Origin: Naegleria gruberi
Taxonomy: Eukaryota
Length of the DNA: 64,000 nucleotides
Reading direction: 5' to 3' (one strand)
Assembly (NCBI GenBank): GCA_000004985.1
Contig: GG738849.1
The notes under the pieces were generated by a model. It ran no database searches. It saw only the letters and a program-made list of their open reading frames with translations, and had not been told where the DNA came from. Position 1 is the first letter of the stretch, and each line of letters begins with the position of its first letter. Below, piece by piece: positions 1-33,856 of the stretch. Both the position numbers and the translations under genes were made by a program.

Positions 1-1066
1 ATAATAATAATAATGAAATATTAATTCATCCATTAGAATTAAAACAAGATATAAAAAATTCATTAAGTAATATTAATAATACTTATTTAAATTATTATAA
101 ATCTATTAATAATATAAATGGTAATAATAATAATAATAATATTAAAAATAGAAGATTAAATATTTTATTATCACATTTAAATATTATAAAAAATAATAAA
201 TATATTAAAAATACATTTCATTATATTAATAATAATAATAATAATTTAAAAAATAATTTAAATAAATTAAAAATAATAATATTAATAATATTTATTTTAA
301 TAATAATAAAAATTAAATTTAAAAATAAAAATATTAAAAATAATTTTACATTAATAGAAATATTAATAGCAATTTCCATAATGGTAACATTTAGTGGATT
401 AACAAGTATAGTATATAATGATAAATTAATAGAAAGTAAAATATCATTTACAAAAATAGAATTAAATTTAATAATACAACATGTCTATTTATATTATATT
501 CAATATAATAAATATCCAATTAAATTAAATGATATTGAAAATATTAAACAAATTACAAATTTAAATGATAAATGGAATCAACCATATATGTACATTCCAT
601 TTATAGATTGGTTAAAAATTATTGAAATTTTACAATCAAAACAAATTAATGAAAAGGAATTAAATTATAATTTAGAATGTTTACAATCTTTAATTAATTG
701 TTTAATTAATTCACAACAATCAATTGATCCTAAAATATTACTTGTTCAAAGTTCAATTCAACCAATTTTATTTTCATTTGGTTATAGAAAACCTATTTTT
801 GTATTTCAAAATGATGATTCAAATGATTCAAATGATTTTAATGATTCAAATAATAATTCATATATACAAAGTAATGAATTTAAAGAAAGATTACAATTGG
901 TTTCACAATGGATTAAAATTGCACGTGAAAAATCTGTAAGTTTTTTTATTATTTAATATTTACAATTTATATATAATTTAAATAGGTTGGGTTAATTAGA
1001 GTACAAAATACATTACAACAATTACAAAATCAATTCAATACTACTAGTAGTACTACTAATAAATAA
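1..1066 (+). CDS. Asn-rich low-complexity protein, unknown function. 5' end lies outside the window. Two exons: 1..935 and 986..1066, intron 936..985.
   Basis: The reading frame is open from position 3 in the same frame as ORF 381..956. GTAAGT donor at 936 and AG acceptor at 984-985 restore the frame, giving ...IAREKS|VGLIRVQNTLQQ...TTNK and a TAA stop at 1064-1066. The 50-nt intron is AT-rich. Confidence 0.5.
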
Positions 1067-1069
1067 TAA

Positions 1070-3801
1070 TTAAATTTGTTCAAATTCAACAATCTTTCCA
1101 CTTGCCAACATTCTTTGAACTGTGCTTGTTGATGTTGAAGATGATGCAGATGGTGGTGTATTCTTTTTCTTCTTACTCTTTTTAGAAGGTGGTGGTGTTG
1201 TTGAAGATTTGGTTTTCTTTTTCTTTTTTGGTTTTTCTTCTTCTTCATCATCGCTCATTTCATCAATATCACTACTACTCATTTCTATTTCTTCATCTTC
1301 TTCATCAATATCACTACTACTGCTACTCATATAATCTTTATTCTCTTCTTCTTCATTCTCTTCTTTATCATCATTTTCATTTCCATTATCATTATTATCA
1401 TTTTCATTAATATTACTATTAATAGAAATGATATCATGTAAATGAATTTGTTCTTTTCTATTTGCATATTTATTTTTAACATATTCTCTTGCTAATAAAC
1501 CTTTTACTAATTTTTTCCAATTATTTAAAAAACGTTCATTCTTTTTTTTAATTAATTTTTCTAATTTAACTTGTTGATATTTTAAATATTCCATTCTAAG
1601 TAATTGTTCATTTTTAGAATGTATAATAATACCATCATAAATAGGTATACTACGTTTATGTTTAAATTCAAAACCAATCATTGCTCTAGAATAATCTATT
1701 TTTAATTTTCTAGCAACAATTGTTAAACCTTTTAAAGGTTCATTATTTGTACTAATATGGCAACATCCAATTGGTAAAAATTTATCATTCCATAATTCAT
1801 ATGATCCTTTATCTGATTTTGGTATTTCATCATTTTCATTTATAATTGGTACTTGATAATCTTCTGTTTGCCATTCACCAAATAATTCTGTTAAATCTGA
1901 ATTTTTACTAAATTTAGAAGATTTTACTATTTTGTAAGGTTTTTCATTTAATTTTACTTTTTTAAAATAATCTCTTAACCATCTATCACGTGTATGAAGT
2001 GGTTTTATCCATTCTCTTAAATAAATTGAATGATTTTTAATTTTATTTATAGAATCTCTATCTTTGGGATATATTGTATCATATTTAGTAATAAATTTAT
2101 CAATTATATAAATTGGATGTGTTTGGAATTCTTGTATTGATGTTGGTATTTCTTTTAAAATTAAATTTTTAATTTCTTTAATTATTTTTTCATCAATTTC
2201 TATAAATGTATTATTTATATATATGGAATTATTTAATATTAATTCAGAATTATTTTTTATAATTAATTTATCTTGTTCTTTTTTAATATTATTATTATTA
2301 TTTGTATTATTATTATTTTTATTATTAGTAGTATTTTTATTATTAGTAGTAGTATTTTTTAAATTACTATTTATAGTATCTTTAATAATTACATCTTGTT
2401 CTTCATCATCATCTAATACATGTATAATTAAATCTTCATTTTCTAAATCAATAATTTCATTATTTTTAATTTCATTATTATTTATATTTATATTTTTAAT
2501 ATTATTATTATTTTCCATATTTGTAATAATATTATTTAAATTATTATTTTTTAATAAATAATTAGGATTTTTTAAATTAATTAAATTTTCATTAAATTCA
2601 AAAATTAAATTATTCATTAAAGTTTCAATTCTTAAATAATTTTCCTTTCCAATTAAAGTATTTGGATATTTACAAATTAAATATTTACTTGTTGTATTTC
2701 TAATAATAAAATTAAAATCTTTTAAAATATCAAATGAAAATACTATAATTGGAATTTGATTTGTTTTTTTATCTAATTTTTTAAAATATTTTTCTAAATT
2801 TTCAATTTTAATTTTTTCTACTTTAAAAGATTTATTTTTTAAAATTAATTTTTTAAAAATATTTTCACTTGTTGAATTTGGATTTTCATATTGAATTTCA
2901 ATCCAATTATTAAATTTAAATTCTTTCTTTTCTAATATTTCTATTTTTGTACAATATCTAATATTATAATTATTATAAATTAATGTAATTAAAATTAATA
3001 AATTTAATTCAAATATATTTTCAATATTTTTTTTAGAAATGTTAAAAATTACATTTTCAAAATTTTCTAAAATTTCAAATAAATTTACATTTTTAAATTT
3101 TTTAATTTTAAATTTTTTATATATAGTATCTAATAAATGATCAATAGATCTATTATCAATTAATTTTAATTCTTCTAATATACTTAATATAGTACCTTGT
3201 AATATTTCATTTTTAATAATTTCTAAAAATTTAAATTCATAATTAAAATAAATTAATAATTCTACAAAATTAATTGAACAATTTAATAATTGTTCTTTTT
3301 TAGTTTTTCTAATTATTTTTTTTCTTTTTTTAGTTTCATGTTCGTCATTTTCATTTTCTTCATTATTTATAGTAAATTGAATATATTCTTCACTTTCCAT
3401 ATTTGGTTCATCTATATTTGGTTCATCTTGTGGAATGACTTGTTCTTCCCATTCATCATTCTCTATATTTGATTCTGTTTGTTCTTCAAACATTTCAATT
3501 CTATCTTTTAATTCTTTAATAGTATCCAATTCTCTTTATATAGTAATATTAAATATTAAATATATTTAAATATTAAAATTTACCTTTCAATTTTTTGTTT
3601 CTTTTTTTTAACAACTTGCTCCTTTTCATATTCCTTTTCCTTTTCTTTTCTCTTTTTATTTTTAATTAATAATTGATCAATACTATGTGATGATTTGTTA
3701 TTTAAATTGGTAACAAGGCTTGTTTCTTCTTCATTGTCATCATCATCTTCATCGGAAGAAAAGGCATGTTTTGCTTTATATTTAACTCCGAAGGGTAACA
3801 T
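1070..3801 (-). CDS. XPC: XPC/Rad4 nucleotide-excision-repair damage-recognition protein. Two exons: 3801..3584 and 3533..1070, intron about 3534..3583.
   Basis: The C-terminal region GEWQTEDYQVPIINENDEIPKSDKGSYELW...FLPIGCCHISTN...ARKLKIDYSRAMIGFEFKHKRSIPIYDGIIIHSKNEQLL matches the BHD3 region of Rad4/XPC (WQTE.Y...PIGC..L....ARKL.ID.A.A..GF.F). ORF 3580..3801 starts with ATG at 3799-3801 and ends in a GTAAAT donor. The acceptor is ...tataaAG at 3535-3534 and the phases are consistent. The C-terminus is acidic and Ser/Thr-rich. Confidence 0.8.
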
Positions 3802-4036
3802 TTATGAGGGAGTATTATAGATGAGGATGTGGTGGTGGAGTATTATGGTGACAGGAGTTAATAATCGGTTGAGAGAGTAATGAAGTGTTTTTTGCGTTTT
3901 TTTAATTGAATTTTTTTTTATAGTCGAGTTCGAGTATGGACAAGAACTATTCATTTTCCTATTAGTGCGCACCCGTAAAATAGCCATGTAAAAATAACGA
4001 AAAATACGATTCAGGGATATAACAGAATTGATGTAA

Positions 4037-17900: not shown

Positions 17901-18331
17901 TTTTATTCCCAAAACCTATTGTATCTGATTATATTTCAGAAACACATGGATTGGATGGATTTGCTGATAGTATTGATGTTAAAAAGATGATTTATGGAAA
18001 GGTTACAATTCGTCCATTAGATCCACTTTCAAGTAAGGATACCATTCTCATTGCTAAGGAAAAACTCAAATTACTTGTATTGAATATTAATAAGAATATT
18101 GTCAAGTTAATTGATAATGCTCTCAGACAACGAAAAGAAAGACTTTTAATTATTGCAACCATTTTAGAAGAATTGGAAACAAGTGTCATCAAAAAGTACT
18201 TGCATCCAAATGAACTTTTAGTTGTAATGGCAAAGATTAAGAGTCAATCCACTAGTAATTCCAATGCTGCATCCCAACAACAACAACCTCAACAACAATT
18301 TGCATCTGCCTCCGAAGAAAAATTGTTTTAA
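14944..18331 (+). CDS. Myosin heavy chain: N-terminal SH3-like domain, motor domain, IQ motif, long ER/K-rich single alpha-helix (SAH) domain and a short tail. Two exons: 14944..15111 and 15170..18331.
   Basis: Exon 1 encodes MYAQFSGLFKVGETVYVNHPTESWIVGKV..., then a GTAAGT donor at 15112 and an AG acceptor at 15168-15169. The motor domain carries the P-loop GESGAGKTE, switch/relay motifs such as LDIYGFE, and the IQ motif IQASFRKLKAIK. Residues around 740-870 form an EEEERIYFEKHREEIERKRREEEEKLRIERERIEKEEAEKRR... SAH-type segment. Confidence 0.85.
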
Positions 18332-18335
18332 AAAA

Positions 18336-19646
18336 ATGGGAAAACGTAAAAAACAAAATAATAATACATCAACTACTACTTCAACTACTAACAGTGGAGA
18401 AAATGATGGAGAAAATATTCTAGTCTCCATACACGAAGGAGAAGAAACAATATTGGAAGAACCACCAAATAAAAAGAATGAACCTAAAATTATACAATTA
18501 TTATTTTCCAAATCCTTTCTAAGTATTGAACAAGCTTGTGAAACTATTCAAACAATTTTAGAAGATGAAAATAATCAACAAGATTCAATTAAAATGTTAA
18601 AAAATCATAAAGCTATTGAACGATTAATTGAATTATTAACAATTGAAAAACATAATCCAATTATTTTAGAAAGTACAAAAGCTTTGAGAAATTTAAATCT
18701 TGTTGATGAAAGTATTTTTACAAATATGGAAAGTGAATTAATTAAACAATTATTTAAATCAATTAATTATTTACAAACAAGTGATAATAATTTACATCCT
18801 ACAATGATTTATGATCATAAAGATAAAACAAGTATTGAAAATATTATAAATACAATTTTAGAATTTTTAATTCAATTAATTCCACAATTTACAGAAATAA
18901 TTTTAAATAATTTAGATTTAAATATTTTAAATATTTTAAAAAATCAATATAAAGAAAAAGTTTTAAAAATTATTTATTTAATTACAAAGGAAATTGAAAC
19001 TAACGTATTTGGTGATTTATCTGATTTATCCGAAAATGGAATTATTAATACTTTTATAAATGGAATTTCAATTAATTTGAAAAATTATGAAAAAATTGAT
19101 AATATTTTAAATGATATTAAAAATTCAGAAAATTTATCTCTAAATTTAGAAATTTTAATTCATTATGTAATTAATAATGAAATTTATAATTCAAAAGAAA
19201 TTTTTGAAATTTTAATTAAATTATTAAAAACAAATGAAATTTTAATTTTAGAATTATTAAATATTATTAATGAAAAAATTGATAATATTGAAATTATTGA
19301 ATATATTTTAAATAATTTTAATTTATCAAATTATCCAAATTTGTTAATTCAATTCGGACAAATTAATCAATTTAAAAAGAAAATTTTAAATTTATTTATA
19401 GAATCAATTAATCAATGTAAAGATTTACCAATTTTATTAGAATTATTAAATGGAATTTTTGATGTTTATGCAGATGAAAAGGGAATTGAAAAGGAATTAT
19501 TAAATTTATTACCATGTTTGGAAGGTGTAGTTAAAAATAAATTATTAACAGAAACAAATGATGAAGAATTGTTAGAATATATTGATGAAACTTTGGAAAA
19601 TTTAATTAATTACATTGATTATATTAAAAAATCATGTCAACAATAA
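18336..19646 (+). CDS. Leu/Ile/Asn-rich helical-repeat protein, unknown function
   Basis: ATG at 18336 (MGKRKKQNNNTSTT...) lies only 4 nt after the myosin TAA stop. The listed ORF start at 18264 overlaps the myosin CDS and is unlikely. Open frame of about 436 aa ending in TAA, with no recognisable catalytic motif. Confidence 0.5.
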   Translation: MGKRKKQNNNTSTTTSTTNSGENDGENILVSIHEGEETILEEPPNKKNEPKIIQLLFSKSFLSIEQACETIQTILEDENNQQDSIKMLKNHKAIERLIELLTIEKHNPIILESTKALRNLNLVDESIFTNMESELIKQLFKSINYLQTSDNNLHPTMIYDHKDKTSIENIINTILEFLIQLIPQFTEIILNNLDLNILNILKNQYKEKVLKIIYLITKEIETNVFGDLSDLSENGIINTFINGISINLKNYEKIDNILNDIKNSENLSLNLEILIHYVINNEIYNSKEIFEILIKLLKTNEILILELLNIINEKIDNIEIIEYILNNFNLSNYPNLLIQFGQINQFKKKILNLFIESINQCKDLPILLELLNGIFDVYADEKGIEKELLNLLPCLEGVVKNKLLTETNDEELLEYIDETLENLINYIDYIKKSCQQ

Positions 19647-19757
19647 AAAAACATTTAAAGTTTCTTTTTTTGTAAAGTATATTTATTGTAAAAATGTAAA
19701 TTAAAAGTTATTAAAAAGTGTTGATATGTTTTGTAATTTTTTTAATAATAAAAAAAA

Positions 19758-21530
19758 ATGTGTGGTATTGGATTTTATGATTCACAATGTATTCTATCAT
19801 CATCATCATTAGAATTATTAAATAATAATAATTTAATTCATTCCGATGATGAAGATGAAGATAGAGTTGGTAATAATGATGAATTGAATAACAAGAGCAA
19901 TTCATCATTATCATTATCAAATAGTAATGATGATAATAATGATGAAAATTGGAATGAAATTGAAAGTTTAATTGAAAATTTAATAATTAAAAGAGGACCT
20001 GACTATTTAGGAAAATTAAAATTTAATAATTTTACATTTATTTCAAGTGTTTTATCATTGAGAGGTGAAAATGTTACAATTCAACCAATTTCAAATTCTG
20101 ATCAAATATTATTATGGAATGGTGAAATATTTAATTATCCAAATATGGAAAATGAATTAAAAAATGGTAATGATACAAATTTATTATTTGAATTATTAAA
20201 TAATAATATTAATGATAAAAAACAAATAATTTCTATATTTAATAATATTCAAGGACCATTTGCATTTATTTATTTTAATATTAAATTTAATTATTTATTA
20301 TTTGGAAGAGACAAAATTGGAAAGAGAAGTTTAGTTTATTATTATTCTAATGGAAAGTTGATTATTTCTAGTAATAGTATTCCTGGAATGGAATTTAAAT
20401 CAATTCCACCATTTATATTTCAATTAAAAAATAACCAATTAAAGAAATATGAATATAAAAGTAATTTTATTAATAAGGAAAGAATTTTATTTAAAGAATT
20501 ACAAGATTTACATTCAGAAGAATATAAAAATGTATTAAATGATTTTTATAGAATTTTTTCAGATTCAATTTCTAAAAGAATTAATTTTTTACAAAGACCA
20601 AAATTAACAAATTTGGAAAATACTAAAAATGGAAGTGAAAACAATTTAAATGATATTGAAAATGAAGCAAATTATGCAATTTTATTTTCTGGTGGAATTG
20701 ATTCACTTGTTTTAGCTTCACTTTCACATTTAAATTCATTAAATAATTTAAATGAAAAAATTACATTATTAAATGTTTCATTTGGTAATTCATTGGAACA
20801 AGTATCAAAAGGACATGATAGAATTCAATCTATTCAAGCATTTAAAATGTTAAATGATAAATATGGAAATAGATTTAATTTAGTATTAATTGATGTTTTA
20901 AAAGCACAAGTTGAAGAATATGCCAATACTATTAAACAATTAATTTATCCAAACAATACAGTATTAGATTATACTATTGGATGTGTATTATGGTTTGCTA
21001 GTAGAGGAAGAGGGTATTTATATGGGAGTGATACAAGTCAATTGGTACAATCTCAAAGTAGAGTTTTATTGTGTGGAGTTGGAAGTGATGAACTACTTGG
21101 AGGTTATCGAAGATATCTTAAAAGATTCAAAGATGAAGGATGGGAAGGTTTAAATGAGGAAATGAATATGGATGTAAATAGATTGTGGTATAGAAATTTG
21201 GGAAGGGATGATCGAATTATTGCATCACATGGAAGAGAGTGTAGACATCCATTCTTGGATGAGAATTTAATTGAATTTGTTCAATCACTTCCACTCAGTT
21301 TTACTGTTGATTTGAGAGATAAGATTGAGTTTGAAATTAAGGAAGGTTGTAATAATTCAACTAAATTCCAACAAGCTAAGGATAAACTTTTGTTAAGACA
21401 AATGGTTTCTCAAATTTTAGAACTTGAATCCAATCAACCTAAAAAAGCCATGCAATTTGCTTCCAATGTTGCTAAAATTACCTTAACAACAAGTAGAAGA
21501 AAAGAAAGAGGAAATAAACGTATTGATTAA
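19758..21530 (+). CDS. Asparagine synthetase domain-containing protein (ASNSD1-like class-II glutamine amidotransferase)
   Basis: MCGIGF at the N-terminus gives the Ntn-amidotransferase catalytic Cys2. The SGGIDS PP-loop of the asparagine-synthetase domain is present. An Asn/Asp-rich insert follows. Single 590-aa exon. Confidence 0.75.
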   Translation: MCGIGFYDSQCILSSSSLELLNNNNLIHSDDEDEDRVGNNDELNNKSNSSLSLSNSNDDNNDENWNEIESLIENLIIKRGPDYLGKLKFNNFTFISSVLSLRGENVTIQPISNSDQILLWNGEIFNYPNMENELKNGNDTNLLFELLNNNINDKKQIISIFNNIQGPFAFIYFNIKFNYLLFGRDKIGKRSLVYYYSNGKLIISSNSIPGMEFKSIPPFIFQLKNNQLKKYEYKSNFINKERILFKELQDLHSEEYKNVLNDFYRIFSDSISKRINFLQRPKLTNLENTKNGSENNLNDIENEANYAILFSGGIDSLVLASLSHLNSLNNLNEKITLLNVSFGNSLEQVSKGHDRIQSIQAFKMLNDKYGNRFNLVLIDVLKAQVEEYANTIKQLIYPNNTVLDYTIGCVLWFASRGRGYLYGSDTSQLVQSQSRVLLCGVGSDELLGGYRRYLKRFKDEGWEGLNEEMNMDVNRLWYRNLGRDDRIIASHGRECRHPFLDENLIEFVQSLPLSFTVDLRDKIEFEIKEGCNNSTKFQQAKDKLLLRQMVSQILELESNQPKKAMQFASNVAKITLTTSRRKERGNKRID

Positions 21531-27430: not shown

Positions 27431-28598
27431 TTAATTAAAATCAATTTCAATATTGTGTTCGTTACAAATTTGTTCCAGTTTTTGCTTGCCATAATTTTGA
27501 GCTTGCAAAATTCCGTCATAGTCTGTGGATGGCCTCAACAATAATTCCTTATAGAATTTGACAGCTTCCATTGGCTTACCAAAATTTTGATGAATCATAC
27601 CTAGAACAAGTAAGGTATGTTCATGACCTGGACTCTCATTCAATACATTCATTAAATGTTTTACACAAACATCAAATTCCTCTTTTTCTTCCATGCACTG
27701 TTTTAAATAATAACTTGCAACAGTGTTACATTTCTGTCTCAATGTATTATCCCTCTTTTCATAGTTATATTTGAGTGCTTTTTCAAATTCTTCAATAGAT
27801 TGGTCAATCATCTTTTTAGTTCCATAAATACATGCACATAAGTGATGAATCTCTCCAAAATCGGTTTCTGAAAATTCACTAGACTTGCTCATTAATTCCT
27901 GACAGAGTTTGACACTTTCCAAACTTGAATCTAAATCTTGCTTTAAGTATTGTAATGATCCAATCCTATAATATAATTTATACATTAATTTATCATCTCT
28001 AACACCACTATTCACAATATTCTCAATTGCTTCTGTAAGTAAATTAATTGAATGTTCATATAATTCCTCTTGTTTCAATTCATCAACAGCTGTTGCATAT
28101 TCCAATCTATATTCAGGATTAGAAGTGTCAGATTTTAATTTTTCTGCAGCATTAATGAGCTCGGTCAATTTGAGAGTATTTTCAATACTAGATGCTGACG
28201 ATTTATCATCTCTATTGATGGTAAACTTTTCTTGTTCCTTTGTTATCATTATTAATATAAATATTAGAAAATCTCAAACATACATATCCTTCAATAATTG
28301 TAATAACCAAATCAATCACTCTCAAATCTACTTCATTGGGTAAAATTGCAAATTCCCCATCAGTTCTAAATCCACTATGAACCAACAATTCATAGGCTCC
28401 AGGTACATTTACAACCTTCTCCGAAAACTTTTCATTCGACAATTTGATTTTTCTAAATTTCTCATCAAAGGCATTCTTGATAATATTCCCCAGAATATTC
28501 TTGATCAAAGTCAGCGAATCACACTTATCCAACAATTCGGGATGTGATTTAAATGTATGATGAACCTTGTGAGAAACAAAACCCAAGACGCTTTCCAT
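27431..28598 (-). CDS. PUB-domain protein with a helical, TPR-like C-terminal region. Two exons: 28598..28284 and 28238..27431.
   Basis: The N-terminal exon contains LIKNILGNIIKNAFDEKFRKIKLSNEKFSEKVVNVPGAYELLVHSGF, which matches the PUB/PUG domain consensus (ILxN..DEKYRKIRLSN..F...V....GA.ELL...GF) of PNGase and UBXD1. GTATGT donor and a 45-nt intron give in-phase continuation ...VITIIEGY|EQEKFTINRDD... into the 272-aa helical-repeat ORF. Confidence 0.6.
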
Positions 28599-29066
28599 TT
28601 TTTTTTACAATTTTTAAATTCCATGGCGGGGAAATGATATCAGCAATTCTATACTTGATTTTCATTGGGGACAAGTTGAGTATTGCATGTTTGGTTTGGA
28701 TGTTGTTGGTGATACGTGAGGATTAATACATGGAATTGTTGAATAAAATCTTTATTGCCACGTCGTTGTCTCCAATTTAAAAATTGTAAAGTTTTTGCTG
28801 GTTCTTATATGAAATTGAGAATTTTCACAGAATTTATTAGCATCTAGGTAGGAATTGGGTGATTCTACACTTTGGCATGAAATTAAAACGAAACCAAACA
28901 ATTTCTTACTTCTCCAAATATATTGTTGAACAATGGATTATTGAATTTAGCATCTTAATGTTGAAGTAAGTTAATGCTAAAAATAAACTTGAACCTGGAA
29001 AAAACTTTAGAATTTCAAAGCCTTCAAAGTTTTTAAAAAAAATTAATCAACATTCATCCAAACATA

Positions 29067-30734
29067 ATGCAAAGTTCTTCTTCTTCCTCTGATCAACATG
29101 ATTGTGATATAGTCATGCTCGACAAAAATCATGAGGAAGAATTATTCGAAAATAGATTAAAAGAACTTCCTTCCGATATTGTTCTTCATTCAATTCTTTG
29201 CCATTATGTTCTTGATTTGGATAGATATGCCTTTCTGTATAGGAAATACAAGTCAGATTTAATTTTGTTATTTATGGGAAGATATCATGGTGAAATTCAT
29301 TTGATTTTTAAGAATGTTTCAATTTCTACTTTTAGAGCTATTGGAAGAGATGGATTGGTGTTTAATTTTATGAAATCTGAAATTCTTGATCAGGTATTAC
29401 CTTCTAGGATTCATTCAATTGATTTTATATCAAATTATTTCACTAGAGAAGACTCTTTATGTGAATTACCTCCAATTATTGTAAATCATATTGGTTATGT
29501 GAGGAAAATTAATTTTTCTAGACAAACAAGTTTTAAAGATTTTAATCAATTGGATTTATTTACAAATTTGGAAGAATTTAAAATATCTGATACTCGTTTA
29601 CCTGCTGAAAATGTTATTAGAATTCTTTCATCTAACAAGCATTTGAAATCTATTGAATATAGTAATCCGCTCTGTGATAGCTCCACTCTTGACGTTCAAT
29701 TATTCTTGGCAAGTATTATTTCACTTCCTAATTTGAGACACGTCAATTTGTCAGGAGTTAAATTCATCAATGATGAAATTGTAGCCAAGTTATTGATTAA
29801 TTTACCATACTTGTCTGATTTGGTAGTAAGATATTGTACAAATGTTAGTGATATTGCATTTGCTGGTATTGAACAACACAAACATATCAAAATTGTGGAT
29901 ATCACTGGTTGTAAAATTACAAATCCTGGAATAATTCTCAAAAATCAAAATATTAGAAAGCTGAGTTATGAAGATTCTGATTTTGAGAACGTATATCTTG
30001 ACCTAGGAACAATTGTATCAAAGGTTATTGAGCTTTCATTTAGTCTCTCAACAAATATTTCCACAAATGTATTGAGAAGTATTGCTGATTCCTGTCCAGA
30101 TGTGGAAATTTTAAGATTAGAAACAAGTACTTACAAATCTGATGGCTTGAAGCAATTCTTAAATTCATCCATCAACAAGTTGACAAGCCTCAAAGAACTC
30201 TATTTGAATGGAACAAAATTAGATGATGGAAATATTAAGGAGATTCTCTTAGAAAAACTTCAAATTCTCAGTTTAGAATTCAATAATATTACAGATTCTT
30301 CCATTGATAAGATTAAACAATTCACTCAACTCACAGACATCAGATTAGGAAGAACCAATATAACACATAAGGGTATTGCTGATCTATTAGCTCATTATCA
30401 TTCTATTGGAAAGGTCATTGAAAACCTAGCATTGAATTCACTTAAAATTACAGGTGAACAAATTCTTTCCATTCCTCATTGGAGTCAAGTTCAGAGATTG
30501 AATCTTTCCAAGAATAAGGTGAATAATGATGCCTTCCTCTTTCTTATCAAATTATTGAATATTATCGAATTGAATTGTTCTGATAATATGATTACCAATG
30601 AAGCTGTTCATCCACATATCTATTCTAATAGAACTTTGAGAAAACTAAACCTTTCTTCCAATAGAAACATTTCTGCACGTACCAAATCATCCATTGTTAT
30701 GAAATGTCCAAATATAAGTGAGCTAACCTTATAA
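29067..30734 (+). CDS. F-box/LRR-repeat protein
   Basis: N-terminal F-box-like motif LPSDIVLHSILCHYVLDLDRYAFLYRKY followed by Cys-containing leucine-rich repeats (LxxLxLxxCxxITD-type) throughout. 555-aa single exon. Confidence 0.7.
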   Translation: MQSSSSSSDQHDCDIVMLDKNHEEELFENRLKELPSDIVLHSILCHYVLDLDRYAFLYRKYKSDLILLFMGRYHGEIHLIFKNVSISTFRAIGRDGLVFNFMKSEILDQVLPSRIHSIDFISNYFTREDSLCELPPIIVNHIGYVRKINFSRQTSFKDFNQLDLFTNLEEFKISDTRLPAENVIRILSSNKHLKSIEYSNPLCDSSTLDVQLFLASIISLPNLRHVNLSGVKFINDEIVAKLLINLPYLSDLVVRYCTNVSDIAFAGIEQHKHIKIVDITGCKITNPGIILKNQNIRKLSYEDSDFENVYLDLGTIVSKVIELSFSLSTNISTNVLRSIADSCPDVEILRLETSTYKSDGLKQFLNSSINKLTSLKELYLNGTKLDDGNIKEILLEKLQILSLEFNNITDSSIDKIKQFTQLTDIRLGRTNITHKGIADLLAHYHSIGKVIENLALNSLKITGEQILSIPHWSQVQRLNLSKNKVNNDAFLFLIKLLNIIELNCSDNMITNEAVHPHIYSNRTLRKLNLSSNRNISARTKSSIVMKCPNISELTL

Positions 30735-30796: not shown

Positions 30797-32183
30797 ATGT
30801 TTAAACGTACATTATTGACCACCAATACAACAAGAAATTCCTCCACTTTCAACCTTGTGATCAATAAAATTCAACAGCATCATTGTCGTCATGTGAGTGC
30901 TTATGCCTTTGATATTGATGGTGTACTTTTAAAAAGTCATCATGCCATTCCGAAGGCTAGAGAAGCCTTGATGAGATTAAAAGATAGGAATATTCCTTTT
31001 TGTATGTATATTATAAACGAGTTGTTGAACTCTAATAACAAATAATAATATTATTTAAAATTATAATTATTTTAAATATTTAAATATTTAAATATACAAT
31101 TATTGGATCAAATTATGGATGATACAATTTAGTATGTCTTACAAATGGAGGAGGAGTTTTGGAAAAGGCTAAAACCTCTCAACTCAACAATATTTTGGAT
31201 TTACCAAAGGAATATCAATTAACATCGGAACAAATGATTTTAAGTCATACCCCATTTCAAGAATTTGCAAAGGATTACAAGGATAAAAATGTTTTAATTG
31301 TTGGTGGATATGATTGTTTGAATGTGGCTAAATCTTATGGATTTGAAAATGCTATTCATGTTACTGATTATCATAAAAAGTAGGTGAATATATGGAATAT
31401 GATTGGAATTTAATGTTTTTAATATTACATTGTACAAATTCTCATTAGATATCCATTCATTTATAGTATTTTCCCACCAAGAGATATTACAAAGGATGAA
31501 TATGAAAGTATGAAGAAATTGTACAATTTTAATGTAGATCCAAAGGATGCTGTTAGTGCTGTACTTTTTATGTATGAAAGTGATCATTTAGGACGCGATA
31601 TTCAAGTTGTTATGGATTTAGTTTTGGCTAATAATGGTGTTCCTGGACATACTGAGGATTATAACTTGGTTGACCATAAACAAAATTGTAAATTAATCAT
31701 GTCCAATGCTGATTTCCTTTATTCATCATCTGTAAGTATTTCATTAATGTTTAATTAATTGTGGAAATTTGCAGTTCTCATGGCCAAGTATGTTATATTA
31801 TAATTCTAAAATTTCTAATCAATTAAAACACCAAAGGATTTGGACAAGGAATGATTAAATTATGTTTAAAGAATATTTACAGAGAATTAACTCAAAAAGA
31901 ACTCAATATTACACAATATGGTAAACCTGAAAAGGTAACATATGATTTTTGTCAAAAGAGACTTGAGGAATTAGCCAAAAATCAAGGAATTTCAGAACCT
32001 TTATCTACCATTTATATGGTTGGTGATAATTTACTTTCCGATATCAAAGGAGCCAATCAAGCAGGAGGTGTCTGGAGATCAGTTCTAGTAAAAACTGGAC
32101 TTTACAAGGGTGAATTAGATCATCAAAATCCAGCTCACTACATTACACCAGATGTTTTTACTTTTGTTATGGAACATTCATAA
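30797..32183 (+). CDS. HAD-superfamily hydrolase of the CECR5/HDHD5/YKR070W family. Five exons: 30797..31001, 31133..31379, about 31449..31731, 31775..31787 (13-nt micro-exon) and 31837..32183.
   Basis: HAD motif I AFDIDGVL. NIPF|LCLTNGGGVLE spans intron 1. FPPRDITKDEY...MDLVLANNGVPG and SSS|FSWP|RFGQGMIKLCLKNIYRELTQKELNITQYGKPEKVTY...MVGDNLLSDIKGANQAGG parallel human CECR5 ([60 protein letters not shown]). All junctions are GT..AG and phase-consistent. The exon-3 acceptor could be 31449 or 31467. Confidence 0.7.
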
Positions 32184-32329: not shown

Positions 32330-33856
32330 ATGAAACGACAACTCGAAGATCCGATCCACTCGGAAAAGAAACAAAAATCAAATGATCACGGAAAGGATGT
32401 TATTAAAATGTTAGGATATACCAATGATGAAAATCCCTTCAATGATAGCAATTTATCGGAAAAATTTGTATGGACAAAACAAGAAGACAATTCATCATCA
32501 TTAACCGAAAATAAAAGGAAGGAAATTTTGTTATTAAAACAACAAAGATTGGAGAGAGAAATGGAAAAGAGAAGATGGGAAATGGAAAGAGAAAGAGTTT
32601 TCAGAGAAAGAGAAGCTGAAAGATTTGATGAATATGAAAAGAAGGAATCTGAATTTCACTTGAAACAAGAAAATTTAGCATCGTTTATTAGATTGAGAGA
32701 AAGAAGAGCAAAATTAATTGATTTTGTTACTAATAACTTGAAATATTTGAGATTTAAGGATAAATTACTTGGTGATGACTATGACAGCCATTTGATTTTA
32801 AGCAGTGAACATGAAAGAATTTATGGAGTTGAGTATAAAAAGCCATATGAAGTATTTCATGATAGAAAATTGCAAGATTTATTAGATTCTCAAGAAGATT
32901 TGGAAACAATGATTGAATGTGATATTGACTATCAAGATTTCTGGAGAGCACTTTCTGTAATTGTCAAGGATGAAATTAATCTTGCAAAGGAATATGAAAA
33001 GAAAAAGGTAGGAAAGGAAGAAGAAAGAACTAAAGATATTCATGCTTCAGTTGTGGCTGAAATTAAAGAATTGCTATCTGATAAGAATTTGGATGAATTA
33101 TTAGAAATGGAACAATTAATTAATGAAACATTAGATAATAGAGATGCTTCAACAGATGTTGAATATTGGGAAGGTTTGAAAAAGTACCTCCAAATTTACA
33201 AAGCTAGGAACATTGTCTCACAAATTCATCAGGAAGCAATCAAAGTTTATGAACAAATGAAAAAGAATGGTACAACTGATAGAATTTTCACTCAACACAA
33301 TACTCCTTCATCTTACAAGGATAATGCTACTCAACAAAAGAAGGATCATAACTCAATATCAGGAGGAGCATCCAATGAAGATGATAGATTAATGCGAGAA
33401 TACAAAAATAAGGAAACAGAGGAAGGTGATGAAGATACAGTGGAAGAAGTCAAACTAGTCAACCAACAATATGCATGGAATGATAAGTATAGACCAAGAA
33501 AACCTAAATTCTTCAATCGTGTAAGAACAGGATATGAATGGACAAATTACAATAGAACTCACTATGATTTTGAAAATCCTCCTCCAAAAGTCATTCAAGG
33601 TTACAAATTCAACATTTTCTATCCAGATTTAATTGACAGAAGTATCACACCATCCTATGCTTTAGAAAGAGATCCAAATAATGATGAATTCTCCATTCTT
33701 ACATTCCATTCTGGTCCACCTTATGAGGATATTTCATTTAGAATTGTAAATAGAGAGTGGGAAAAGTCTCACAGAAGAGGTTATAGATGTGTTTTCGAGA
33801 GGGGTGTTCTTCAACTGCACTTTAAATTTAAGAAATTAAAATTCCAAAAAGATTAA
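32330..33856 (+). CDS. CACTIN: Cactin (spliceosome-associated protein)
   Basis: C-terminal YRPRKPKFFNRVRTGYEWTNYNRTHYDFENPPPKVIQGYKFNIFYPDLIDRSITPSYALERDPNNDEFSILTFHSGPPYEDISFRIVNREWEKSHRRGYRCVFERGVLQLHFKFKKLKF is near-identical in pattern to the conserved cactin C-terminal domain. The mid-region ER-rich coiled coil (LEREMEKRRWEMERERVFRER) is present. Start is taken at ATG 32330 (MKRQLEDP...). The upstream part of the listed ORF is AT-rich leader. Confidence 0.85.
   Translation: MKRQLEDPIHSEKKQKSNDHGKDVIKMLGYTNDENPFNDSNLSEKFVWTKQEDNSSSLTENKRKEILLLKQQRLEREMEKRRWEMERERVFREREAERFDEYEKKESEFHLKQENLASFIRLRERRAKLIDFVTNNLKYLRFKDKLLGDDYDSHLILSSEHERIYGVEYKKPYEVFHDRKLQDLLDSQEDLETMIECDIDYQDFWRALSVIVKDEINLAKEYEKKKVGKEEERTKDIHASVVAEIKELLSDKNLDELLEMEQLINETLDNRDASTDVEYWEGLKKYLQIYKARNIVSQIHQEAIKVYEQMKKNGTTDRIFTQHNTPSSYKDNATQQKKDHNSISGGASNEDDRLMREYKNKETEEGDEDTVEEVKLVNQQYAWNDKYRPRKPKFFNRVRTGYEWTNYNRTHYDFENPPPKVIQGYKFNIFYPDLIDRSITPSYALERDPNNDEFSILTFHSGPPYEDISFRIVNREWEKSHRRGYRCVFERGVLQLHFKFKKLKFQKD

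What the first reader, a model, noticed from the sequence alone, without database searches (positions are those of the whole stretch)
31732..31836. 13-nt micro-exon (TTCTCATGGCCAA, encoding FSWP) in the HAD-hydrolase gene, flanked by 43-nt and 49-nt introns
Only the inclusion of a 13-nt exon restores the frame between ...ADFLYSSS and RFGQGMIKLCLKN... . The exon has an AG acceptor at 31773-31774 and a GTATGT donor at 31788. Inclusion recreates the conserved PRFG(H/Q)G motif found in human CECR5 (MPRFGHG). A micro-exon this short is at the limit of exon definition and is easily missed by gene predictors.
Basis: partly seen in the sequence, partly recalled or inferred. Interest (0 to 1): 0.5.

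Follow-up and report, generated by a model that had tools for sequence, protein, structure and literature searches.

The report
Conserved 13-base micro-exon in Naegleria gene
The 13-base exon is almost certainly real: it supplies four conserved amino acids of a phosphatase-like (HAD family) enzyme gene in the amoeba Naegleria gruberi and is kept in four Naegleria-type genomes, but it is an ordinary gene-structure detail rather than a new kind of feature.

Summary
The window is Naegleria gruberi NEG-M. At 30797-32183 (+) lies a five-exon gene for a TIGR01456/CECR5/YKR070W-type HAD-IIA hydrolase of 364 aa.

- intron 31732-31774, 43 nt, GTAAGT...CAG
- exon 31775-31787, TTCTCATGGCCAA, encoding FSWP plus the first base of Arg
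- intron 31788-31836, 49 nt, GTATGT...AAG

The claim that only this exon restores the frame is wrong. I found 131 GT/GC-AG models that keep the frame open. One is a simple 4-nt donor shift that skips the exon and gives SSSVRFGQG.

The micro-exon model is nevertheless clearly the best:
- It has the top profile score of the 131 models: 352.4 against 337.0 bits on my own profile, and 237.3 against 226.9 bits on TIGR01456.
- It aligns without gaps to yeast YKR070W and to 118 homologues.
- The same 13-nt exon, between two diverged introns, is present in N. fowleri, N. lovaniensis and an uncultured Naegleria-like contig. Changes are at third codon positions, plus one Ser-to-Ala.
- Willaertia magna keeps only the downstream intron.

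The public N. fowleri and N. lovaniensis gene models already contain this exon. I could reach no transcript data for N. gruberi. Verdict: a real, most likely constitutive micro-exon of low novelty.

The parts
30797..32183 (+). Whole coding region of the HAD-IIA (TIGR01456/CECR5/YKR070W family) hydrolase gene: 5 exons, 364 aa, stop TAA at 32181-32183
   Evidence: exon map; TIGR01456, 237.3 bits, cutoff 139.25; PF13344, PF13242; YKR070W 3kc2, E 8.6e-41
30797..31001 (+). Exon 1 (ATG to ...NIPF, ends in phase 1); contains the catalytic DIDGV motif
   Evidence: D39, D41 and G42 are invariant
31002..31132 (+). Intron A, 131 nt, GTATGT...TTTAG, phase 1. Shared with N. fowleri and N. lovaniensis, absent in Willaertia
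31133..31379 (+). Exon 2 (LCLTNGGG ... VTDYHK)
31380..31448 (+). Intron B, 69 nt, GTAGGT...ATTAG, phase 2. Seen only in N. gruberi among the genomes compared
31449..31731 (+). Exon 3 (KYPFIY ... MSNADFLYSSS), ends in phase 0
31732..31774 (+). Intron D, 43 nt, GTAAGT...TTTGCAG, phase 0; the upstream flank of the micro-exon. If retained, translation stops after VSISLMFN
   Evidence: Present in N. fowleri (49 nt), N. lovaniensis (47 nt) and L009 (47 nt); absent in Willaertia
31775..31787 (+). 13-nt micro-exon TTCTCATGGCCAA: codons F246 S247 W248 P249 plus the first base of the R250 codon (A|GA)
   Evidence: Orthologous exons are TTTTCATGGCCTA (N. fowleri), TTTTCATGGCCCA (N. lovaniensis) and TTTGCTTGGCCAA (L009)
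31788..31836 (+). Intron E, 49 nt, GTATGT...CCAAAG, phase 1; the downstream flank of the micro-exon. If retained, translation stops after 24 further codons (SMLYYNSKISNQLKHQRIWTRND*)
   Evidence: Same position and phase in N. fowleri (58 nt), N. lovaniensis (58 nt), L009 (41 nt) and Willaertia magna (41 nt)
31837..32183 (+). Exon 5 (R)FGQGMIKLCLKN ... GKP ... GDNLLSD ... VMEHS and the stop codon
31736..31741 (+). Cryptic GTATTT donor lying inside the GTAAGT consensus. It allows the rival in-frame model that skips the micro-exon

Best explanation
TTCTCATGGCCAA (31775-31787) is a genuine internal coding exon, most likely constitutive, of the Naegleria gruberi TIGR01456/CECR5-type HAD hydrolase gene.

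Shown: the two flanking introns (43 and 49 nt) carry canonical GTAAGT/GTATGT donors and AG acceptors. Removing both joins ...FLYSSS to FSWP to RFGQG... and rebuilds a family-wide, fixed-length segment with a nearly invariant Pro and an invariant Arg-x-Gly-x-Gly. The exon evolves like coding sequence while its introns drift.

Inferred: because the introns are so short, each is recognised as a unit (intron definition), not across the 13-nt exon. A 13-nt exon cannot carry complexes on its 3' and 5' splice sites at once, so the two introns are probably removed one after the other, as has been shown for plant micro-exons.

Only the doubly spliced mRNA encodes the enzyme. Skipping the exon from the normal donor shifts the frame (SSS-DLDKE-stop), and retaining either intron runs into a stop codon.

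The exon exists because two introns lie 13 nt apart. The downstream intron is shared with Willaertia. The upstream one is found only in the Naegleria lineages, so it was either gained there or lost in Willaertia.
For: Sequence and ORF.

Model scoring:
- Best of 131 frame-preserving splice models against an independent 118-homologue profile, 352.4 against 337.0 bits for the best model without the exon.
- The curated TIGR01456 profile gives 237.3 against 226.9 bits.
- In the 118 homologues there is no indel between N237 and I256. P249 is in 104/118, R250 in 118/118, G252 in 105/118 and G254 in 118/118.
- The alignment to the solved yeast YKR070W is gapless: YKLNRFGQG against FSWPRFGQG.

Comparative evidence:
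- The annotated N. fowleri (P0001) and N. lovaniensis (P0125) proteins contain FSWPRFGQG. They are reproduced exactly from their genomes only by five-exon models with a 13-nt exon at the same phases.
- A fourth, uncultured Naegleria-like contig has TTTGCTTGGCCAA (FAWP) between introns of 47 and 41 nt.
- Between N. fowleri and N. lovaniensis the micro-exon is 12/13 identical and the flanking exons 54/60 and 57/60, but the introns only 32/54 and 39/65. All micro-exon differences among the three named species are at third codon positions.
- Willaertia magna has FNWP fused to the upstream exon and keeps only the downstream intron, at the same position and phase.

Literature:
- The N. fowleri models were made with RNA-seq-guided BRAKER1 (PMC6831594).
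- Consecutive removal of the introns flanking a micro-exon, and merging of a micro-exon into a neighbouring exon on intron loss, are described in PMC8831610.
- The intron-definition argument is in PMC8378409.
Against: - No transcript of N. gruberi could be examined. Two scans of metagenome and metatranscriptome contigs for the spliced junction found nothing, and the spliced 364-aa protein is not in the protein collection.
- An in-frame alternative without the exon exists, so ORF logic alone does not prove inclusion.
- The acceptor of intron E (CCAAAG) has no pyrimidine tract.
- Sequential splicing and intron definition are inferred from other organisms, not shown for Naegleria.
Confidence: 0.9

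Rival explanations
1. There is no micro-exon. A single 101-nt intron (31736-31836) is removed using the GTATTT donor four bases downstream, giving a 361-aa protein that reads ...FLYSSSVRFGQG...
For: The frame is preserved and there is no stop. It is the second-best of 131 models. It still passes the TIGR01456 cutoff at 226.9 bits. The same +4 GT is available in the other Naegleria genomes, because it is part of the GTRNGT donor consensus.
Against: It scores 15.4 bits lower on the 118-homologue profile and 10.4 bits lower on TIGR01456. It deletes three residues where none of the 118 homologues has a gap and removes the conserved Pro. The donor GTATTT is weaker than GTAAGT. It leaves unexplained why a 13-nt block bounded by AG and GT and encoding F-S/A-W-P is conserved within otherwise diverged intron sequence in four genomes. 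The residue it would create varies between species (Arg in three, Gly in L009).
Confidence: 0.03
2. Both forms are made. The micro-exon is alternatively spliced, and the form that skips it using the +4 donor is a minor in-frame isoform lacking FSWP, or skipping from the normal donor is a non-productive product.
For: The cryptic donor gives an open frame in all four Naegleria-type genomes. Exon skipping and intron retention have been detected genome-wide in N. gruberi transcriptomes (PMC6142364).
Against: There is no evidence here for any isoform. The skipped product lacks a segment of fixed length in the whole family. The frame preservation is a by-product of the donor consensus, since 4 and 13 are both 1 modulo 3.
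Confidence: 0.06
3. The locus is a decaying pseudogene or carries an assembly frameshift, and the AG...GT-bounded 13-mer is a coincidence.
For: Without splicing, the frame changes twice within 105 nt.
Against: All five exons are open and the family's catalytic motifs are intact. An identical architecture is present in independent assemblies of three other lineages. The substitution pattern is that of coding sequence.
Confidence: 0.01

Closest known systems
Orthologous gene models N. fowleri FDP41_005833 (XP_044559793.1) and N. lovaniensis C9374_011353 (XP_044554522.1)
   Same: The same 13-nt exon encoding FSWP plus one base, with the same phases (0 and 1), flanked by introns of 49/58 and 47/58 nt. 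Their public protein sequences already include FSWPRFGQG.
   Different: They differ from N. gruberi at third codon positions. Elsewhere in the gene they lack N. gruberi intron B and have an extra intron after DLQI.
Small conserved coding micro-exons (15 nt or less) of land plants (Yu et al. 2022, PMC8831610)
   Same: Constitutive, coding, conserved over long evolutionary times and often not a multiple of three. They merge with a neighbouring exon when a flanking intron is lost, as in Willaertia here. Their flanking introns are removed consecutively, and they are prone to misannotation.
   Different: Plant introns are usually longer. The plant cases have RNA-seq and RT-PCR support, whereas this one has only comparative support.
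Micro-exons in agaricomycete orthologues of the same family (Amanita muscaria, Coprinopsis marcescibilis)
   Same: The same TIGR01456 gene family carries annotated exons of 19, 14 and 15 nt between introns of 48-67 nt. This shows that such exons are routine where introns are short.
   Different: They lie at different positions (around LTNGGG and GDNP), and there is no intron at the PRFG site. They are independent in origin.
Vertebrate and nematode neural micro-exons (SRRM4- and PRP-40-dependent)
   Same: The exon is too short for complexes to assemble across it, so recognition has to work through the introns (PMC8378409).
   Different: Those exons are alternatively spliced, tissue-regulated, mostly multiples of 3 nt and lie between long introns. 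This one is a non-3n, obligatory coding exon between 43- and 49-nt introns in a unicellular organism.

Membership tests
Coding micro-exon (internal exon of 15 nt or less) | Internal segment bounded by a 3' splice site (AG) upstream and a 5' splice site (GT) downstream, each belonging to a complete intron | tested here: met
   ...TTTGCAG|TTCTCATGGCCAA|GTATGT...; the introns are 43 and 49 nt with GTAAGT and GTATGT donors
Coding micro-exon (internal exon of 15 nt or less) | Length of 15 nt or less, and required to keep the reading frame and the protein sequence | tested here: met
   13 nt. It is the best of 131 frame-preserving models and matches a gap-free family segment
Coding micro-exon (internal exon of 15 nt or less) | Present in the mature mRNA (junction reads or cDNA) | not testable with these tools
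   No N. gruberi transcripts could be reached. Junction scans found nothing. The only indirect support is that the N. fowleri model came from RNA-seq-guided BRAKER1
Coding micro-exon (internal exon of 15 nt or less) | Evolutionary conservation of the exon relative to its flanking introns | tested here: met
   four genomes. The exon is 11-12 of 13 identical with synonymous changes, while the introns are about 60% identical and vary in length
TIGR01456 / CECR5 (HDHD5, yeast YKR070W) HAD-IIA hydrolases | Score above the curated family cutoff | tested here: met
   237.3 bits against a cutoff of 139.25. YKR070W 3kc2, E 8.6e-41 over residues 34-359
TIGR01456 / CECR5 (HDHD5, yeast YKR070W) HAD-IIA hydrolases | HAD catalytic motifs: DxDG nucleophile motif, conserved Lys (GKP), and the GDN...D acidic motif | tested here: met
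   D39, D41, G42, G278-K279-P280, G312-D313-N314 and D318 are invariant in the alignment
TIGR01456 / CECR5 (HDHD5, yeast YKR070W) HAD-IIA hydrolases | Phosphatase activity and substrate | not testable with these tools

The most novel reading that the evidence does not exclude
The 13-nt exon was created in the Naegleria stem lineage by de novo insertion of intron D just 13 nt upstream of an older intron E, which is shared with Willaertia. That would make it a datable case of micro-exon birth by intron gain in a discoban protist. It may also be missing from, or wrong in, the N. gruberi reference model (presumably EFC48827.1/D2V220).
Probability: 0.3. Interest if true: 0.3.

Novelty: new member of a known kind. 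Interest (0 to 1): 0.2.

Why it matters
The practical value is correct gene annotation. Without the 13 bases, the predicted N. gruberi enzyme is either truncated or lacks a fixed-length, nearly invariant Pro-Arg-Phe-Gly-x-Gly segment.

It is also a clean, conserved example of a 15-nt-or-shorter exon in a heterolobosean with very short introns. It could serve as a test case for micro-exon-aware gene finders and for studying the order of intron removal.

It does not change what is known about splicing or about this enzyme family.

Tried and rejected
- Transcript evidence. Two scans of metagenome contigs for the spliced junction (TCNTTYTCATGGCCNAGATTTGGACAAGG and TGGCCNAGATTTGGACARGGNATGAT) both gave 0 hits. 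Exact look-up of the 364-aa and 361-aa models found neither in the collection.
- Reference annotation. By accession order there is one annotated + strand gene between the LRR gene and cactin: EFC48826 is the LRR gene at 29334-30731 (+), EFC48828 is cactin at 32330-33856 (+), so EFC48827.1/D2V220 lies between them and is presumably this gene. It was not returned by the homology search. That search also missed P0133 (63% identical, 239 bits), so its silence proves nothing. A literature search for the accessions found nothing.
- Literature on Naegleria micro-exons: only two incidental hits, neither relevant.
- RNA structure across 31712-31856 is no better than shuffled sequence (z = +0.87), so I rejected a structure-assisted splicing idea.
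- Shared ancient intron positions: Mixia (intronless), Amanita and Coprinopsis (12 introns each), the GCA_026419775.2 orthologue (one 35-nt intron elsewhere) and a metagenomic orthologue (L010) have no intron at either position. There is therefore no support for an ancient pan-eukaryotic intron here.

Full report
**Source and context**

Exact look-ups of neighbouring ORFs identify the window as Naegleria gruberi, on an 850,158-nt scaffold. UFD1 is EFC48825, the LRR protein EFC48826 (NAEGRDRAFT_46060), cactin EFC48828 (NAEGRDRAFT_46061), and EFC48977/8 lie on the minus strand. GC content is about 0.3.

The gene in question lies between the LRR gene and cactin. Its product is a HAD-IIA hydrolase of the TIGR01456/CECR5 family:
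- TIGR01456: 237.3 bits against a cutoff of 139.25.
- Pfam: PF13344 and PF13242.
- Yeast YKR070W crystal structures 3kc2/3rf6: E about 1e-40 over residues 34-359.

**The observation**

- Exon 3 ends ...GATTTCCTTTATTCATCATCT at 31731.
- 31732-31774 is a 43-nt GTAAGT...TTTGCAG intron.
- 31775-31787 is TTCTCATGGCCAA.
- 31788-31836 is a 49-nt GTATGT...CCAAAG intron.
- Exon 5 starts GATTTGGACAAGG at 31837.

With two further introns (31002-31132, 131 nt; 31380-31448, 69 nt), the five exons give a 364-aa ORF from ATG 30797 to TAA 32181-32183.

Any other outcome at the normal splice sites is non-productive:
- Skipping the 13 nt from the normal donor gives SSS-DLDKE-stop.
- Retaining intron D gives VSISLMFN-stop.
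- Retaining intron E gives a stop after 24 codons.

**What is wrong in the finding**

The exon is not the only way to restore the frame. The donor consensus GTAAGT contains a second GT. Using it (donor at 31736, GTATTT) with the acceptor at 31836 removes 101 nt and reads ...SSSVRFGQG..., a 361-aa protein. I enumerated all GT/GC-AG one- and two-intron models in 31600-31900. There were 1391 combinations, and 131 distinct products kept the frame open.

**Why the micro-exon model is nevertheless right**

1. Profile scores. The +4-donor model is second at 337.0. The curated TIGR01456 profile also prefers it, 237.3 against 226.9 bits.
2. Fixed spacing. In those 118 homologues there is not a single indel between N237 and I256. 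P249 is Pro in 104, R250 is Arg in all 118, and G252 and G254 are Gly in 105 and 118. Yeast YKR070W aligns without a gap, SNQDLLWANPYKLNRFGQGAF against SNADFLYSSSFSWPRFGQGMI. The rival model would delete three residues and the Pro.
3. Comparative genomics.
   - The public N. fowleri (FDP41_005833) and N. lovaniensis (C9374_011353) proteins read ...FLYSSSFSWPRFGQG....
   - Mapping those proteins back to their genomes reproduces them exactly only with a 13-nt exon at the same place and phases: TTTTCATGGCCTA between introns of 49 and 58 nt, and TTTTCATGGCCCA between introns of 47 and 58 nt.
   - A fourth lineage is an uncultured Naegleria-like organism on ENA contig ERZ27315067:k141_421914. Over the 171-aa exon fragment compared (P0133), its protein is 63% identical to N. 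gruberi and 66% to N. fowleri. It has TTTGCTTGGCCAA (FAWP) between introns of 47 and 41 nt, and cactin lies downstream as in the window.
   - Among the three named species, all differences in the exon are at third codon positions.
   - Between N. fowleri and N. lovaniensis the exon is 12/13 identical and the neighbouring exons 54/60 and 57/60. The two introns are only 32/54 and 39/65, about what unrelated AT-rich sequence gives. This is the signature of a translated segment.
4. Willaertia magna. Its orthologue has ...SNNFNWP in one piece with the upstream exon and only the downstream intron (41 nt), at the identical position and phase. So the four codons are coding sequence there without any micro-exon.

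**How it most likely works**

Shown: canonical splice signals, the reading frame, and conservation.

Inferred: with introns of 41-58 nt, recognition is by intron definition. A 13-nt exon cannot hold factors on its 3' and 5' splice sites at the same time, so the two introns are probably removed consecutively. This has been documented for plant micro-exons of 15 nt or less (PMC8831610) and is argued mechanistically for animal micro-exons (PMC8378409). No special RNA structure spans the region (z = +0.87).

Such short introns are unremarkable in this group. N. fowleri RNA-seq was mapped with a 30-nt minimum intron, chosen 'based on an assessment of predicted genes' (PMC8296547). Other introns seen in the window are 69, about 72 and 131 nt.

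**Origin**

Intron E (phase 1, inside the Arg codon) is shared by Naegleria and Willaertia. Intron D (phase 0) is found only in the four Naegleria-type genomes.

Neither position is occupied in the other orthologues examined:
- Mixia: intronless.
- Amanita and Coprinopsis marcescibilis: 12 introns each.
- GCA_026419775.2 orthologue: one 35-nt intron elsewhere.
- Metagenomic orthologue L010: no intron at this site.

Either intron D was gained in the Naegleria stem or Willaertia lost it. Willaertia keeps only one of the introns seen in the Naegleria genes, so loss is quite possible. This cannot be polarised with the genomes available.

Intron turnover elsewhere in the gene is visible. Intron B is specific to N. 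gruberi, and an intron after DLQI is specific to N. fowleri and N. lovaniensis.

**Comparison with what is known, and novelty**

Micro-exons of this size are a known kind. The agaricomycete orthologues of this very family carry annotated 19-, 14- and 15-nt exons, with the 14 and 15 in tandem. The identical exon is already in the public N. fowleri and N. lovaniensis models, and the former were built with RNA-seq-guided BRAKER1 (PMC6831594).

I could not see whether the N. gruberi reference model contains it. By accession order that model is presumably EFC48827.1/D2V220, but it was not returned. That search also missed P0133, so the absence is uninformative.

I found no literature on micro-exons in Naegleria. 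The finding is therefore a correct, useful annotation detail: a new (or at least undocumented) member of a known kind, with low surprise value.

**Limits**

There is no direct transcript evidence for N. gruberi. Both junction scans were empty.

Noticed in passing
window 31380-31448; L001 3701-3760; L003 2206-2265: Intron turnover within the same gene. The 69-nt phase-2 intron after ...DYHK is present only in N. gruberi. N. fowleri and N. lovaniensis instead have a 60-nt phase-1 intron after ...DLQI that N. gruberi lacks.
   Followed up: partly
L009 (ENA ERZ27315067 k141_421914), 1259-2464, micro-exon 2061-2073: A metagenome contig from an uncultured Naegleria-like organism, about equally distant from N. 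gruberi (63%) and N. fowleri (66%) over a 171-aa exon fragment. It carries the same gene with the micro-exon (FAWP) and the same HAD-then-cactin gene order as the window. N. fowleri and N. lovaniensis have a guanylate cyclase gene downstream instead.
   Followed up: partly
L006 593-611, 1709-1722, 1784-1798; L008 655-673, 1793-1806, 1869-1883: The agaricomycete orthologues (Amanita muscaria, Coprinopsis marcescibilis) have conserved annotated exons of 19, 14 and 15 nt. The 14- and 15-nt exons are consecutive and split the GDNP/SD catalytic motif.
   Followed up: no
window 28377-29334 (+): The reference LRR model EFC48826 (474 aa) starts MNQQFIGS at about 28377 and joins at about 29334, implying an intron of roughly 930 nt. 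The uninterrupted 555-aa ORF 29067-30734 offers a simpler start, so the reference 5' exon looks doubtful.
   Followed up: no
window 27431-28598 (-): Two overlapping minus-strand ORFs (272 aa and 128 aa) look like one gene split by an intron or a frameshift. The 272-aa ORF as such is not in the protein collection, and accession order suggests no + strand model here.
   Followed up: no
window 1-4000 and 18001-20000: GC content drops to 0.17-0.20, against about 0.30-0.35 elsewhere. These are possibly intergenic or repeat-rich AT islands.
   Followed up: no
L001 1-2939: In N. fowleri, LINE-like ORFs (reverse transcriptase, endonuclease, RNase H) sit directly upstream of the HAD gene.
   Followed up: no
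The word-indexed homology search did not return P0133, a 239-bit, 63%-identical relative that the exhaustive representative search found. Absence of a protein from that search, including the expected N. gruberi reference model, is therefore not evidence that it does not exist.
   Followed up: partly
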